The notes beneath the pieces were generated by a model, which made no database searches, was not told the DNA's origin, and saw nothing but the letters and a program-made list of their open reading frames with translations. The position numbers and the translations under genes were made by a program. A stretch of DNA of 64,000 nucleotides, taken from the IMG/VR virus record IMGVR_UViG_3300029288_000159, positions 7,498-71,497 of that record. The stretch is one strand, 5' to 3'. Below are positions 48,224 to 63,362 of this stretch, one piece after another. Each line of letters starts with the position of its first letter. Position 1 is the stretch's first letter. The stretch comes from a virus. Taxonomy: Duplodnaviria; Caudoviricetes.

Positions 48224-48353
48224 CGATGGTTCGCGCCAACTCCTTCGTGAATCGTTCGATCTCCACTATCGCTACCGTGGCTCTGCGATAGGCTGCCACG
48301 AGTTCATGCGCTCTGTTTACTGAGTTGCTCAGATCACTTATGGCTTGGTTCAT
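48165..48353 (-). CDS. Small coiled-coil protein
   Basis: ATGA overlap with the nuclease stop. Confidence 0.5.
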   Translation of the reverse strand: MNQAISDLSNSVNRAHELVAAYRRATVAIVEIERFTKELARTIDDIHEIETRPLDSEEEIPF

Positions 48354-49996
48354 TGCTTTCTCCGTCGCTCTTCGTAGCGGACCTGCGTGATCGTCTCCGT
48401 CGCACCGACCTCGCGCAACGACGTCATGACTCGCTCGAGTGTGTCTGCCACCGAAAGTCCTCGGGCTCGAGCCGCATCCTTGATCGCCTCCTTGCTTGTG
48501 CTCGGCCGTACGGCTTCGGGGAACTCGAACATGCGAACGAGACCATCAGCGTTGAGGCGAATCCGCTCAACAGGAACTTCGTGGCGACCCCACACGCCCG
48601 TGTCGGTACGGATGCCTCCGTTCGCGTCGGCCCATGTCTGTAGAGCTCTCTGGACGTCATCTACAGCCATCCTCACACGTTGGAGACGAGACAACATCCA
48701 CGCTGCATGCCTCTCGTCCTGGATGAGTTCTGGGAGCGCTACAACCGGGTAGTCCATCTCCGGGTTCAGTGATGGGTCGACTTGTTCGATGCTCTCTCTG
48801 GTTTCGGGGCAGAAAGCGCGAGCGGGGCAGTATCTGCACCACGCTCCCGGATTGGGTGCCAGCTTTTCATCCATGGCTCTCTGGATGTCTGCTAGCGTCG
48901 CTCGCACTTCGAGGAAGTCAGCCGGGCCGAGTACTGCAGTCTCGGCCCGCACCATGTCTTCGTCCACGAACGCAAGCATGATCCGAATCGTCTGCGCACC
49001 TATCCATGCAGCTACAGCCGTCCCCAGAAACCGCATCTGCATGTTGTGCTCGATCGCCTCTGTGCCTTCGACCTGTCCAGTTTTCCAATCGATGACAGTG
49101 GGGCATGAGTCCCCGAGCACCAGATCTGCTGCGCCAGACCATTCGCCCGGCTCAAGGAATTCGAACACCTTGCGTGGGTCTTTGCCCGGGTGTAGCCGTG
49201 CACTGTGAGTTCTCGGATCGTAGATGACTGGATTCTCCACGCTCAGGATGGGTTGCGACAGGAACGGCGCCATCTCGCGTTCCCACGCGGCGATCCAGTT
49301 ACGGACTGTCTTCATGCTCTCCTTGAGAGAGATGCTCATGTCCTTTGCGATCTGATCAGGCCGCCGCGCCATACTGTTCGCTCGGTCGGCAGCGTAGGCG
49401 TGGAAGAGGCGTCCCATGCTCGCCTCCTCCGATGCCTCGCTGTCGTCCGCGGGCCAGACCGCATCTGGAGACCAGAATGCCCAGACGCAATGAACTGCGA
49501 TGTGGAGCCGGGAAGCTGTCGGGCGATGTTGGCGTAGTTCAGTCGATGTCGTCGATGTCATCGTAGGCTCATGCCAGGACACAGATATCGACATGCGCCG
49601 CAAAGTTACTGCTGCGCCCAGTACTATTGCTGTATTATCAAGTACGAGATCTCCGGGTACATCCAGTTGCATCAACAGTGATCCGTCTGCGGAGAATGTG
49701 CGACCAAACGAGGCTTTCCCGGTCCCACATGCAATTGCAGAAATCGGATTCGGAATGCTGATGATGCGCTGCTTGACAACGCCTTCTGTCGCTCGCTCGA
49801 TAACGCTGTTTGCCACTTGCGAGAATGCGGGTACTTCGAAGTGCAATTCCGCAAGCAGTCTGTTCTCAATGAGAATGGAGTCAACGTTAGGCATGTGGCC
49901 GGAATAGATCCGTATCAATCCAGCGTCATGCCTTGCGCCGAGTGCAGTCAGGTTTCTGACTTGTTTACACGCTGCAAGCCGTTCGGCATCTATCAT
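48350..49996 (-). CDS. PD-(D/E)XK (RecE/Cas4-like) exonuclease with an N-terminal virion-type domain
   Basis: PTASRL..., GAADLV...VIDWKTG, PGAWCRYCPAR..CP; adjacent to recT; N-terminal ~140 aa align to ORF 37542-37940. Confidence 0.8.
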   Translation of the reverse strand: MIDAERLAACKQVRNLTALGARHDAGLIRIYSGHMPNVDSILIENRLLAELHFEVPAFSQVANSVIERATEGVVKQRIISIPNPISAIACGTGKASFGRTFSADGSLLMQLDVPGDLVLDNTAIVLGAAVTLRRMSISVSWHEPTMTSTTSTELRQHRPTASRLHIAVHCVWAFWSPDAVWPADDSEASEEASMGRLFHAYAADRANSMARRPDQIAKDMSISLKESMKTVRNWIAAWEREMAPFLSQPILSVENPVIYDPRTHSARLHPGKDPRKVFEFLEPGEWSGAADLVLGDSCPTVIDWKTGQVEGTEAIEHNMQMRFLGTAVAAWIGAQTIRIMLAFVDEDMVRAETAVLGPADFLEVRATLADIQRAMDEKLAPNPGAWCRYCPARAFCPETRESIEQVDPSLNPEMDYPVVALPELIQDERHAAWMLSRLQRVRMAVDDVQRALQTWADANGGIRTDTGVWGRHEVPVERIRLNADGLVRMFEFPEAVRPSTSKEAIKDAARARGLSVADTLERVMTSLREVGATETITQVRYEERRRKQ

Positions 49997-60949: not shown

Positions 60950-61129
60950 GTGAGCAAAAAAGCTGGACCCATACGAACCACGCAGAAGAATCTTCGGCTC
61001 GCACCAGATGAGATGCGCAGAGCCGAGAAGGTTATGAACCATTACGGATTGGACCTTCAGGCTCTTCTTCGAATGCTCGTTAAGCAGGAGCATGATAGGC
61101 TTTTCTCACATGGCAAGGAGGCAAGGTGA
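60950..61129 (+). CDS. RelB/DinJ-like ribbon-helix-helix protein (59 aa), absent from the ORF track
   Basis: Manual translation MSKKAGPIRTTQKNLRLAPDEMRRAEKVMNHYGLDLQALLRMLVKQEHDRLFSHGKEAR; GGGAGA RBS; GTGA overlap with the Cas12f start. Confidence 0.75.
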   Translation: MSKKAGPIRTTQKNLRLAPDEMRRAEKVMNHYGLDLQALLRMLVKQEHDRLFSHGKEAR

Positions 61130-62550
61130 AGGTGAAGAAGAAGAAGAAGAAGGAGGAGGAAAAGGAGAAGGAGACGGGCACAGTTGTTCGTGTGCGGGCT
61201 GTGCGAGTGGAGATTGCAAAGCCTCTCGACATCCAGTGGCGAGAGCTGGACGATCTGTTGCGAGATAGACGAGCCGTAATGCATCGGCTGCTCAATGCAG
61301 GCGTGCTTCACATTGCTTCTCAGCGCTGGGCCGGGAATGAGAAACCGCGCGCGCTTGAAGCCATCAAGGCAGAATTGTCGTCTTGGCAAACGTGGTGCGC
61401 TGAGATGGGCGCCAAGACGAAGGATGAGAAAGAACGCATCAGACACGAACGTAGAGCGACGATGACATTGGCGTCGTCAATCACAGATGCACTGCAACAG
61501 CGGTGCGTTGACGCAGATCAACGGTGGCGCAAAAACAAGGGCAACGCCAGATTGCCTACCGCAAAACGTGGGGCTCCAATCTTCATCCGTGATGGTGGTT
61601 GGACGCTTGAGTCGGACAAGAACGGTTGGATCCTGTCGATGAGACTTGAGGGTGTCACCCCAACGAATCATCGTCCAGGCAAGGTCCGCGTCGCTTTGCG
61701 ACCGTCATCCGGAAAGCATCATGGCATTCTGCAACAGATGGTGAAAGGCTCAGTCAAGATAGGCAATTGCCAAGTTGTACTCGATGAGTCGACTGGCAAA
61801 TGGTACGCCATCCTAGCGTTCACTGAGGAGTTGAATCGAGCGGCCCCACCACGAGACGGTACCAAGACACTTATCGTCCATAGAGGGCAACGCAACTTTA
61901 TGTATGCCCTGTGCACCGACGGGCGAACGCGTATATTGCGCGGCAACAAGTTTGCGGCTCAACGATTGCATCTGAAGAGGAGAGCGGAGGCTTTCAAGCG
62001 TGTGTCAGCGTTCGAGCGTGGTGCCGGAGCCAAGGGGCATGGCACCAGACGACGGTACGAAACTCATGATGCTTTGGATCGGAAGCTCAAACGAGTCGTT
62101 CATACATATTGTCAGACTTCGGCTGCCTGGGTGTTCAAGGCCGCCAAGGATCTTGGCTGTGGACGCATCCTCATCGAGGACTATGGCGGTATAGAACAGA
62201 GCGACGAACGAGCTGAGCGCAGATTCTTGGATCACTTCCCGTACTACCAACTGGGGACGGCAATCAAGTGGGTCTGCAAGCGAGAGCAACTGGAGCTGTT
62301 GGAAGGTCCGGCAGCATTCATCTCGCAAACGTGTCCACGATGCAAGCATCAGGATGCTCGTCAACACAACACCCGAACCGGAGTGTTCCATTGCATCAAC
62401 CCAGACTGCGGATTCGACCGACCAGCAGACTGGGTAGCAGCATTCAATCAAGGTATCGCTTTTGGCATTGACATGAGTGAGATAAAGAAGATACTTGCTG
62501 CTCAAGAGAGGGTAGCGGCCGAAATCAAAAAGAAGGCAAAGGCGGCATGA
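61126..62550 (+). CDS. cas12f: Cas12f1-like type V effector with altered RuvC (H252-E351-D435); probably nuclease-deficient
   Basis: N-terminal RVEIAKPLDIQWRELDDLLR, GAKGHG, GCGRILIEDY, RFLDHFPYYQL, SQTCPRC...CINPDC...ADWVAAFN follow the AsCas12f1 layout as recalled; RuvC-I reads LIVHRG instead of xGIDLG; adjacent to the array. Confidence 0.85.
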   Translation: MKVKKKKKKEEEKEKETGTVVRVRAVRVEIAKPLDIQWRELDDLLRDRRAVMHRLLNAGVLHIASQRWAGNEKPRALEAIKAELSSWQTWCAEMGAKTKDEKERIRHERRATMTLASSITDALQQRCVDADQRWRKNKGNARLPTAKRGAPIFIRDGGWTLESDKNGWILSMRLEGVTPTNHRPGKVRVALRPSSGKHHGILQQMVKGSVKIGNCQVVLDESTGKWYAILAFTEELNRAAPPRDGTKTLIVHRGQRNFMYALCTDGRTRILRGNKFAAQRLHLKRRAEAFKRVSAFERGAGAKGHGTRRRYETHDALDRKLKRVVHTYCQTSAAWVFKAAKDLGCGRILIEDYGGIEQSDERAERRFLDHFPYYQLGTAIKWVCKREQLELLEGPAAFISQTCPRCKHQDARQHNTRTGVFHCINPDCGFDRPADWVAAFNQGIAFGIDMSEIKKILAAQERVAAEIKKKAKAA

Positions 62551-62555
62551 CGAGC

Positions 62556-62714
62556 AGGGCCGCGAATGCAGTTGTGATGGGTGTGCTGCCGCGACTCCGC
62601 GCGGCAAACGCGAGACCACGTTACGTGCTCGCGAACCTGGGGACACTCAGGACGATGGGGGATGCCCCATCAGCACCATGACCGCCCACCACACCTGCAT
62701 TCGCGGCCCTTCTG
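62556..62714 (+). ncRNA. tracrRNA-like structured RNA
   Basis: 16-bp perfect closing stem (62556-62571 with 62695-62710) enclosing four hairpins; 62671-62683 is complementary to repeat nt 21-33 (one G-U), 62684-62689 to repeat nt 7-12. Confidence 0.8.
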
Positions 62715-62735
62715 CGTTTGGCAAAAGGAGATAAC

Positions 62736-63362
62736 ATGTCATTCAACATGAAAGAGGCCACCCTGGAGCAAATCGTCGCTGAGGCTCTCGCTCTGAGAGC
62801 TAAAGCAGAGCGGTCGGCCGCTGAATATCTGGCGTTTCTGTATCAGTTCGAGTTGGAGCGTGAGGACCTGTGGAAGACTGCAGGTGTTGCAACCTACAGT
62901 CAATTCCTGAATTCGCATTCGCTGGTGAATACGTCGAGATACGACGTGTTCCGTAAAGGTGTGGAGAAGCTGGGCAGTGTGGCTCAGGCTATCGAGATAG
63001 GCGAGCCATCCACTGCAGAGGCAGGCAAGATCAAGGACCCCCTTGCTGTGCCAGTGTTTGAGGGGATCACGAAAGCGTGGATAGATATTCACGATGGCAC
63101 CGTCCCAAGTGAACAGACGGCAGAGTGCCATCGCGCGCAGGCCGAACCAAAGAAGTCTCCAGTGTTCTTCCGGCAGTCAGAACTTCATGAGTTGCGCGCA
63201 AAAGTGCAACAGTTGGCAGCCAGGAACAGGCAGCTGGAAGCCGACTTGAGAACGAAGCAAAAGACGATATACGAACTGCAAGCCAAGCTGGAAGGAATAG
63301 CTGCCAAGAAGGCTGCCAAGAGAGCGGCGCGAGTCGAAAATTCAGAAGGCGCGAGCGTCTAG
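62736..63362 (+). CDS. Unknown accessory protein (208 aa) between tracrRNA and array
   Basis: AAGGAG RBS; helical N-terminus with LWKTAGVATYSQFL; C-terminal basic coiled coil. Confidence 0.75.
   Translation: MSFNMKEATLEQIVAEALALRAKAERSAAEYLAFLYQFELEREDLWKTAGVATYSQFLNSHSLVNTSRYDVFRKGVEKLGSVAQAIEIGEPSTAEAGKIKDPLAVPVFEGITKAWIDIHDGTVPSEQTAECHRAQAEPKKSPVFFRQSELHELRAKVQQLAARNRQLEADLRTKQKTIYELQAKLEGIAAKKAAKRAARVENSEGASV

What the first reader, a model, noticed from the sequence alone, without database searches (positions are those of the whole stretch)
61861..62450. RuvC-I Asp replaced by His (LIVHRG) while RuvC-II Glu and RuvC-III Asp are intact
Seen: H252 (CAT at 61879) sits where Cas12f1 has the GIDLG aspartate; E351 (ILIEDY), D435 (ADWVAAFN) and the zinc finger are retained. 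Known: a His at RuvC-I also occurs in Cas12m, which binds but does not cut DNA. Inference: independent convergence on a binding-only state in a Cas12f1 scaffold. Caveat: CAT is one base from GAT, though the flanking residues have also diverged.
Basis: partly seen in the sequence, partly recalled or inferred. Interest (0 to 1): 0.85.

Follow-up and report, generated by a model that had tools for sequence, protein, structure and literature searches.

The report
Phage Cas12f with histidine active site
A bacteriophage carries a miniature CRISPR enzyme of the Cas12f type whose first cutting residue is a histidine, not an aspartate, in this gene and in its whole, almost purely phage-borne family, so it probably binds rather than cuts DNA, as Cas12m does.

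Summary
ORF 61126-62550 (474 aa) is a full-length relative of AsCas12f (profile E 5.7e-55; Foldseek E 4.6e-25). H252 (CAT, 61879-61881) aligns with the RuvC-I aspartate. E351, D435 and the CCCC zinc finger are kept.

It is not a sequencing error or a private mutation. His-Arg-Gly is invariant in 23 homologs down to 32% identity. An independent wetland assembly keeps CAT, and relatives use both CAT and CAC. Among 147 cluster representatives RuvC-I is H 100, R 25, N 14, K 2; only the five canonical outgroup proteins carry Asp. RuvC-II and RuvC-III decay repeatedly in sub-branches.

The gene lies at the end of a 71.5-kb contractile-tailed phage genome without cas1, cas2 or cas4. Next to it are a strongly structured tracrRNA candidate with an anti-repeat, a CRISPR array, and a conserved helical/coiled-coil accessory gene (10 of 12 loci; the other two are cut short).

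Best reading (about 0.6): a binding-only, Cas12m-like silencing effector that arose independently on a Cas12f1 scaffold. Loss of cleavage is inferred, not shown.

Surveys have probably noticed the family already (V-U24 in PNAS 2023; a landfill clade with a 474-aa representative), but nobody has characterised it. The scan holds no notes on it from other DNA.

The parts
60950..61129 (+). 59-aa ORF whose stop overlaps the effector start; possible ribbon-helix-helix regulator (a lead only)
   Evidence: The ORF is. Its only family hit is a weak NikA-like match, E 0.07. Small ORFs sit at the same place in L009 and L010, but they are only 15-21% identical to it.
61126..62550 (+). Cas12f1-like effector gene, 474 aa, with an H-E-D RuvC triad
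   Evidence: Pfam Cas12f1-like_TNB, E 8.1e-10. PADLOC Cas12u3 and Cas12f, E about 1e-35, full length. Profile against AsCas12f, E 5.7e-55. AF2 model pLDDT 86.3. Foldseek top match AsCas12f, E 4.6e-25.
61879..61881 (+). CAT codon of H252 at the RuvC-I position
62176..62178 (+). GAG codon of E351 (RuvC-II, ILIEDYGG)
   Evidence: The position is E in 118 of 147 representatives.
62332..62409 (+). CCCC zinc finger of the TNB domain (C403, C406, C423, C428); it also holds the invariant R417
   Evidence: These columns are invariant. The Pfam TNB domain covers residues 373-441.
62428..62430 (+). GAC codon of D435 (RuvC-III, RPADWVAA)
   Evidence: The position is D in 136 of 147 representatives.
62551..62717 (+). 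tracrRNA candidate: a strongly structured intergenic RNA. The anti-repeat at 62663-62683 is complementary to the 3' part of the CRISPR repeat.
   Evidence: A 29-nt closing stem and the anti-repeat pairs are. MFE -104.6 kcal/mol, z -10.3 against shuffles. Anti-repeats also lie beside the arrays of L005 and L006. There is no Rfam family. Expression was not tested.
62718..63362 (+). Conserved accessory gene: 208 aa from the ATG at 62736, 214 aa from the TTG at 62718. It has an all-helical N-terminal domain and a coiled coil of about 65 residues at the C-terminus.
   Evidence: Homologs lie next to the effector in 10 of 12 distinct loci; the other two loci are cut short. Alignment A2. AF2 pLDDT 86.4. 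No Pfam, PHROG or PADLOC family.
63452..64000 (+). CRISPR array: 8 identical 36-nt repeats, spacers of 19-49 nt, cut off by the end of the contig
   Evidence: The window end is the end of the virus record.

Best explanation
This is the effector of a phage-encoded, adaptation-less type V-F-like CRISPR module. The module comprises a Cas12f1-derived protein, a tracrRNA, a CRISPR array and a dedicated accessory protein. The RuvC-I aspartate was lost long ago in the family and is fixed here as histidine. The likely mechanism is inferred by analogy with the Cas12m2 structure. The protein, probably a dimer like Cas12f, loads a crRNA:tracrRNA duplex and opens an R-loop on matching DNA. It cannot assemble the two-metal centre needed to cut. 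Instead H252 and D435 would hold at most one metal ion, E351 would steady the histidine, and the pocket would clamp the displaced strand. The complex would then stay on the DNA as a roadblock that silences transcription or replication of a competitor element or a host gene. The conserved helical/coiled-coil partner may add DNA binding, oligomerisation or regulation. Shown here: the residue identities, their conservation, the gene neighbourhood, the array and the anti-repeat. Inferred: loss of cleavage, the single-metal clamp, silencing, and any role of the partner.
For: The full-length sequence and fold are Cas12f1-like, and H252, E351 and D435 sit at the RuvC-I, II and III positions. HRG is invariant in 23 homologs. 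Among 147 representatives RuvC-I is H 100, R 25, N 14 and K 2. No member of the 142-member clade carries D, although His to Asp is a single base change. Arg, Lys and Asn substitute for His in sister branches, which fits a phosphate- or strand-binding role better than a precise catalytic one. RuvC-II changed at least 15 times (to G, A, Q, D, S, P) and RuvC-III at least 9 times on the tree. This resembles the 'gradual inactivation' described for subtype V-M (PMC10691335). In Cas12m2 the HDD triad binds one Mg ion, holds the non-target strand and gives no cleavage (PMC10442227). Arrays flank the effector in 10 distinct loci, and a degenerate array does so in an eleventh. An anti-repeat and a very stable RNA fold lie in the intergenic region. 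The phage has no cas1, cas2 or cas4. The family is almost absent from 185,579 species genomes: 3 hits, all on short MAG contigs.
Against: No biochemical data exist for any member. In the His sub-clade E351, D435, R417 and the zinc finger remain highly conserved, which could equally mean a working, altered active site. Altae-Tran et al. argue that conserved specific replacements often mark rearranged but active sites. No convincing protospacer was found, so the targets and the PAM are unknown. The tree samples only the best 150 hits, uses FastTree, and is rooted by assumption on the canonical DED group.
Confidence: 0.6

Rival explanations
1. The H-E-D site is a rearranged but active centre. His, Glu and Asp would bind a transition metal (Mn, Zn, Fe or Co) or a single Mg ion. 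The enzyme would still hydrolyse something: nicking one strand, cutting slowly, processing its own pre-crRNA in the RuvC pocket as Cas12c and Cas12j do, or cutting only when the accessory protein is bound.
For: E351, D435, R417 and the zinc finger are strongly conserved in the His sub-clade. The His itself is invariant across 23 homologs with both codons in use, which indicates selection for His specifically and not merely against Asp. The literature holds that conserved replacements can mark active rearranged sites (PMC10691335) and that RuvC-site pre-crRNA processing occurs in Cas12c and Cas12j (PMC10442227).
Against: Arg, Lys and Asn replace His in related branches, and Arg and Lys cannot ligate a metal. 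Glu is lost to Gly, Ala, Gln or Ser in several sub-branches that keep arrays or accessory genes. For example P0010, with HGD, is a close homolog. The only solved His-at-RuvC-I effector, Cas12m2, does not cut, and reverting it to DED did not restore cutting. To my knowledge (not searched here) no RNase H-fold nuclease is reported active with His at the first-strand carboxylate position.
Confidence: 0.25
2. The effector is a guide-directed recruiter. Its main job would be to bring the conserved accessory protein, or through it a host factor, to a DNA site. This would parallel Cas12k with transposition proteins or dCas12f with a sigma factor, and silencing by the effector alone would not be the function.
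For: The accessory gene is adjacent in 10 of 12 loci and the other two are truncated. It is a confidently folded helical domain plus a long coiled coil. Nuclease-dead Cas12f relatives are known to work with sigma-E and HTH partners (PMC13472631). V-U24 is described as having a non-canonical RuvC-I together with an HTH protein.
Against: No physical interaction was tested, because the complex predictor was unavailable. The accessory protein has no recognisable enzymatic or named domain. Its position relative to effector and array varies, lying upstream in L006 and after the array in L007. That also fits a simple locus regulator.
Confidence: 0.12
3. The His is a sequencing or assembly error, or the gene is a decaying pseudogene.
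For: CAT is one base from GAT.
Against: The source contig has depth about 40 with no variant, and an independent sample keeps CAT. All 23 homologs and 100 of 147 representatives have His. The frame is intact, the fold is confident, and the array, tracrRNA candidate and accessory gene are all present.
Confidence: 0.01

Closest known systems
AsCas12f (Acidibacillus sulfuroxidans Cas12f1, type V-F1; PDB 8j12, 7wju, 8dzj)
   Same: It gives the best sequence and fold match over the full length. It shares the WED/REC/RuvC/zinc-finger TNB layout, the glycine-rich GxGAxGHGxxRR loop, a tracrRNA with anti-repeat, and a 36-nt repeat array.
   Different: AsCas12f has the canonical D-E-D triad and cuts dsDNA. 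Here RuvC-I is His, followed by an invariant Arg-Gly (HRG instead of DLG), and RuvC-II reads IEDYGG. The locus is phage-borne, lacks adaptation genes and carries a dedicated accessory gene.
Cas12m2 (type V-M, Mycolicibacterium mucogenicum; PDB 8hhl)
   Same: It has His at RuvC-I in a non-canonical triad and keeps the RuvC-III Asp. It is compact, and it silences by tight binding without cleavage (PMC10442227).
   Different: It comes from a different lineage: the matches are weak, and Cas12m lies outside the derived TnpB clade that holds most other Cas12s. Its triad is HDD, not HED. It uses crRNA only, is monomeric and has a coiled-coil REC2. It is chromosomal or plasmid-borne, not phage-borne.
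dCas12f-sigma-E systems and array-associated dCas12f (Hoffmann et al., PMC13472631; PDB 9n9c)
   Same: They derive from Cas12f, have RuvC mutations, bind DNA under RNA guidance without cutting, and associate with helical DNA-binding partners. Foldseek E is 6.5e-17.
   Different: Those proteins lack the C-terminal RuvC-III and zinc-finger region. Most have lost their arrays, use a single guide RNA and sit next to rpoE in Bacteroidota. Here the C-terminus, zinc finger, array and tracrRNA candidate are intact, and no sigma factor is among the ten neighbours tested.
Subtype V-U24 of Altae-Tran et al. 2023 (PMC10691335)
   Same: [quoted passage not shown] Both features fit this locus.
   Different: Identity could not be checked, because the supplement with the sequences is not held. 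The accessory protein here could not be shown to contain an HTH.
Landfill phage clade 'C' of PMC12607003 (19 sequences, 474-aa representative)
   Same: It shares the habitat (the best-holding run is a landfill metagenome), the length of 474 aa, the position beside a viral CRISPR array, and a similar structure-prediction score (pTM 0.6 there, 0.56 here).
   Different: That paper reported no recognisable RuvC motifs in the clade. Here all three positions are located by profile alignment, with only RuvC-I altered. Identity of the sequences is probable but unverified.

Membership tests
Type V-F1 CRISPR-Cas12f | Full-length sequence and fold similarity to solved Cas12f1 effectors | tested here: met
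   Profile against AsCas12f: E 5.7e-55, positions 7-428. Foldseek E 4.6e-25. PADLOC Cas12u3 and Cas12f: E about 1e-35. The NCBIfam guided_TnpB score of 90.9 bits is below the 100-bit cut-off.
Type V-F1 CRISPR-Cas12f | Canonical Asp-Glu-Asp RuvC triad | tested here: not met
   RuvC-I is His252. Glu351 and Asp435 are present.
Type V-F1 CRISPR-Cas12f | Zinc-finger TNB domain inserted in RuvC | tested here: met
   Pfam PF07282 scores above its cut-off. The four Cys are invariant.
Type V-F1 CRISPR-Cas12f | Adjacent CRISPR array | tested here: met
   Eight 36-nt repeats lie about 900 nt downstream. Arrays are present in 10 related loci.
Type V-F1 CRISPR-Cas12f | tracrRNA with an anti-repeat | tested here: met
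   Computational only. The anti-repeat is at 62663-62683 inside an RNA with fold z -10.3. Anti-repeats occur in L005 and L006. No expression data.
Type V-F1 CRISPR-Cas12f | Asymmetric homodimer on one guide RNA | not tested
   The complex predictor was unavailable.
Type V-F1 CRISPR-Cas12f | RNA-guided dsDNA cleavage | not testable with these tools
   This needs biochemistry.
Cas12m (type V-M) | Sequence and fold membership in the Cas12m lineage | tested here: not met
   The only hit is a partial one of E 1.3e-3 to UnCas12m4a. Cas12m2 ranks far below Cas12f in Foldseek.
Cas12m (type V-M) | Non-canonical triad with His at RuvC-I | tested here: met
   The triad here is HED. Cas12m clades carry HDD, HEK or HQK. 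This is a resemblance in one residue, not kinship.
Cas12m (type V-M) | crRNA-only guide, no tracrRNA | tested here: not met
   An anti-repeat-bearing structured RNA is present.
Cas12m (type V-M) | Binds target DNA without cutting | not testable with these tools
   Inferred only.
dCas12f-sigma-E | C-terminal truncation that removes RuvC-III and the zinc finger | tested here: not met
   D435 and the CCCC finger are present and invariant.
dCas12f-sigma-E | Adjacent rpoE gene and loss of the array | tested here: not met
   No sigma factor is among the ten neighbouring proteins. The array is present.
V-U24 (Altae-Tran 2023) | Non-canonical RuvC-I in a CRISPR-associated Cas12 | tested here: met
V-U24 (Altae-Tran 2023) | Linked HTH-domain protein | tested here: inconclusive
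   The accessory gene is conserved. An HTH is only suggested, by nearest Atlas clusters carrying DUF3102 or Plasmid_parti_N at score 0.92-0.93. Pfam, PHROGs and the fold searches gave nothing for the N-terminal domain.
V-U24 (Altae-Tran 2023) | Sequence identity with published V-U24 members | not testable with these tools
   The supplement is not held.

The most novel reading that the evidence does not exclude
A phage-restricted type V subtype in which a Cas12f1-derived effector lost its first catalytic carboxylate long ago (the path Asp to Asn to His/Arg/Lys is inferred). It would work as an obligate pair with a dedicated helical/coiled-coil protein of no known family. Phages would use this pair to silence or re-programme a competitor or host gene without cutting DNA. 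That would be a third, independent origin of binding-only Cas12 with its own partner protein.
Probability: 0.35. Interest if true: 0.75.

Novelty: new variant of a known kind. Interest (0 to 1): 0.55.

Why it matters
Naturally nuclease-disabled Cas12 effectors (Cas12k, Cas12m, dCas12f) have each revealed a new use of RNA-guided DNA binding and have given compact tools. This lineage would be a further, independent case. It differs in being built on the smallest well-studied scaffold, in keeping its tracrRNA candidate, array and zinc finger, in being carried almost only by phages, and in always travelling with an unknown partner protein.

It offers a natural experiment on what each RuvC carboxylate contributes, because H, R, N and K variants, and E-to-G or E-to-A variants, all exist in nature. 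It also gives a testable case of phages using CRISPR for silencing rather than destruction. A naturally dead effector of about 450 aa with tight binding could serve as a base-editor or CRISPRi chassis.

The value is tempered because large surveys have probably already flagged the family, and because the mechanism rests on analogy.

Tried and rejected
- **Sequencing error or pseudogene:** rejected.
- **Active-site geometry:** I could not measure it, because the model's coordinates are not exposed to scripts.
- **Spacer targets:**
  - Three 21-nt spacer seeds found nothing in IMG/VR.
  - Whole arrays of the window and of L007 against INPHARED gave only chance-level hits, E 0.05 or more.
  - No self-target lies in the window.
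  - One seed matched two soil metagenome contigs over 23 nt, inside a NarL-type response-regulator gene. A single 21-mer hit in that collection is about what chance gives, so it is not used as evidence.
- **Rfam:** no family for the intergenic RNA.
- **RNA runs:** no RNA holder listed.
- **Accessory protein:**
  - No Pfam, PHROG or PADLOC family beyond coiled-coil noise.
  - Foldseek found no match.
  - VIA-align rows cover only the C-terminal coiled coil.
  - The Atlas search gave DUF3102 and Plasmid_parti_N as leads only.
- **PNAS 2023 supplement:** not held, so V-U24 membership could not be checked.
- **Literature:** searches found no paper characterising a His-RuvC-I Cas12f.
- **Promoter scan:** one sigma-70-like site at 62468-62495, no more than shuffles give.

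Full report
**Observation.** The 474-aa ORF at 61126-62550 (+) starts at a GTG that follows an AAGGAGG ribosome-binding site. Codon 252 is CAT at 61879-61881, codon 351 is GAG and codon 435 is GAC. I built a profile from 23 homologs and searched it against all PDB sequences. The best hits were the AsCas12f structures (8j12, 8j1j, 8dzj, 8j3r, 7wju), at E about 1e-54 to 1e-55 over nearly the full length. In those alignments:
- The family's VHRG lines up with GIDLG, and with the deposited dead mutant GIALG in 8dzj.
- IEDYGG lines up with QMEDL.
- PADWVAA lines up with NADYNAA.

So H252, E351 and D435 occupy RuvC-I, II and III. Pfam recognises the zinc-finger TNB domain. PADLOC calls the protein Cas12u3/Cas12f at E about 1e-35. 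An AlphaFold2 model (pLDDT 86.3) matches AsCas12f best in Foldseek (E 4.6e-25), with Cas12m2 far lower at about 1e-11.

**The His is not an error or a private mutation.**
- H252, R253 and G254 are invariant in all 23 homologs, down to 32% identity.
- The source contig (depth about 40) shows no variant. A contig from an independent wetland metagenome covers 61803-61953 and keeps CAT.
- Related loci encode the His with CAT or CAC, so selection acts on the amino acid.

**A family-wide state.** An exhaustive HMMER search of 1.84 billion cluster representatives gave 643 hits at E of 1e-3 or better. I aligned the best 150 together with the earlier homologs; 150 of these 165 proteins were long enough to align. 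The RuvC-I column was overwhelmingly non-acidic. In a FastTree phylogeny of 147 near-full-length representatives, RuvC-I is H in 100, R in 25, N in 14, K in 2 and a gap in one. Only five proteins carry D. These are the most distant ones, with canonical GVDLG/GVDMG motifs, and I used them as the outgroup.

The 142 non-Asp proteins form one clade (support 0.92). Two all-Asn lineages branch first, followed by a 133-member H/R-dominated clade (support 0.987). By parsimony RuvC-I changed at least 17 times and never returned to Asp, although His to Asp is a single base change. RuvC-II changed at least 15 times (to D, G, A, Q, S, P) and RuvC-III at least 9 times (to E, Q).

The picture is one old loss of the first carboxylate, free exchange among H, R, N and K, and piecemeal decay of the other two positions. 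It resembles the 'gradual inactivation' reported for subtype V-M (PMC10691335). Three caveats apply:
- The sample is the query's own neighbourhood.
- FastTree was used.
- The root is assumed.

**Context.** The window is bases 7498-71497 of a 71,497-bp IMG/VR virus record that CheckV rates 97% complete. It encodes portal, tail sheath, tape measure, baseplate, RecT and exonuclease genes. Near the effector lie DUF2303, a DnaA-type HTH, DUF5131 and a RuvC resolvase. The record holds no cas1, cas2 or cas4.

Four elements surround the effector:
- **Intergenic RNA.** Downstream lies a 167-nt intergenic stretch (62551-62717) that folds at -104.6 kcal/mol (z -10.3). A 29-nt closing stem encloses it, and an internal segment (62663-62683) is complementary to the 3' part of the CRISPR repeat. 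This is a tracrRNA candidate.
- **Accessory gene.** A 208/214-aa gene follows at 62718-63362.
- **Array.** Eight identical 36-nt repeats (63452 onward) have uneven spacers of 19-49 nt and are cut off by the contig end.
- **Upstream ORF.** A 59-aa ORF overlaps the effector start. It is at best weakly RHH-like.

**Related loci.** I fetched twelve distinct related loci from IMG/VR, JGI, Logan and three MAGs.
- Ten carry an array beside the effector. The closest homolog (55% identity, L009) has a degenerate array in which only the 3' 16-17 nt of the repeat are conserved.
- The accessory gene is adjacent in ten of the twelve loci. The two exceptions are contigs that end just beyond the effector or the array.
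- Anti-repeats lie next to the arrays of L005 and L006.
- Contexts are phage-like, with lysozyme, peptidoglycan-binding and many small ORFs.
- A scan of one genome for each of 185,579 prokaryote species found only three hits, all on MAG contigs of 1.6-5.3 kb. The lineage is therefore essentially phage-borne.

**The accessory protein.** It folds confidently (pLDDT 86.4) as a helical domain of about 140 residues plus a single helix of about 65 residues. Pfam, PHROGs and PADLOC return nothing beyond coiled-coil noise. Foldseek finds nothing, and VIA-align matches only the coiled coil. The nearest named Atlas clusters carry DUF3102 or Plasmid_parti_N (score 0.92-0.93). That is a lead toward a DNA-binding helical domain and no more. 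Whether the protein binds the effector could not be tested.

**Mechanism.** The structure of Cas12m2 (PMC10442227) is the only experimental guide. Its His317/Asp485/Asp579 triad binds one Mg ion through His and the RuvC-III Asp and lacks the second metal. It clamps the non-target strand and gives tight binding without cleavage, and reverting it to DED did not restore cutting. By analogy, H252 and D435 would hold one metal, E351 would steady the His, and the pocket would serve as a strand clamp. Arg and Lys variants would contact the phosphate directly. A phage could use such a complex to silence a rival element or a host gene without breaking DNA.

I put this reading at about 0.6. The main rival (0.25) is an altered but working site, such as a nickase, a transition-metal enzyme, or pre-crRNA processing in the RuvC pocket. 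It is kept alive by the strong conservation of E351, D435, R417 and the zinc finger within the His sub-clade. A recruiter role centred on the accessory protein (0.12) overlaps with the main reading.

**Comparison with what is known.** The protein works like Cas12m but is not a Cas12m. It is a Cas12f1 derivative that fails the defining DED test. It also differs from the dCas12f-sigma-E proteins, which have lost the C-terminal RuvC-III and zinc finger and mostly their arrays (PMC13472631).

Two surveys probably saw this family:
- A landfill virome study describes a 19-member clade beside viral arrays with a 474-aa representative, for which 'no RuvC motifs' were found. The best-holding run for this window is a landfill metagenome.

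Neither identity could be verified, and no paper characterises the family.

**Verdict.** I rate it a new variant of a known kind, of moderate interest.

Noticed in passing
L009:9500-10600: The closest homolog (55% identity) is followed by about 15 copies of a short conserved unit, (G/T)GTCATGGCGT(A/C/T)AGAG. This is the 3' half of a repeat, with variable 5' parts and irregular spacing of 36-266 nt. It looks like a degenerate or minimised array in which only the anti-repeat-pairing part survives.
   Followed up: partly
window 63488-63536 and 63852-63927: Spacer lengths are very uneven (49, 27, 37, 35, 36, 21, 19 and at least 37 nt) although the repeats are identical. A 12-nt copy of the repeat start sits just before repeat 2. 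Related arrays have regular 35-40-nt spacers.
   Followed up: partly
L014:3519-3541 and L015:1059-1081: The first 23 nt of spacer 4 (63709-63731) match two soil metagenome contigs exactly, inside a NarL/LuxR-type response-regulator gene. The match stops after 23 nt, and the upstream flank is GCCGCG. It may be chance.
   Followed up: partly
window 60950-61129: A 59-aa ORF has its stop overlapping the effector's GTG start. It shows a weak NikA-like (RHH) match, E 0.07. Small ORFs of 52-58 aa sit at the same place in L009 and L010 but are barely similar.
   Followed up: partly
window 61126-61176: The effector begins with a Lys/Glu-rich low-complexity stretch (MKVKKKKKKEEEKEKE) that most homologs lack. 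Contig laying was interrupted there because it reads as a repeat.
   Followed up: no
L004:22-39: A perfect 18-nt complement (one G-U) of the 3' part of the L004 repeat lies 6 kb upstream of the effector, far from the array. It could be a displaced tracrRNA gene or a remnant repeat on the other strand.
   Followed up: no
window 62468-62495: A sigma-70-like site, TTGACA-16-GATACT (10 of 12), lies inside the 3' end of the effector gene, about 55 nt before the structured RNA. It is the only such site in 3.7 kb, which is no more than shuffles give.
   Followed up: no
window 48350-49996: The exonuclease next to RecT carries an N-terminal segment that matches a PHROG 'virion structural protein' family (residues 24-138, E 1e-12).
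   Followed up: no
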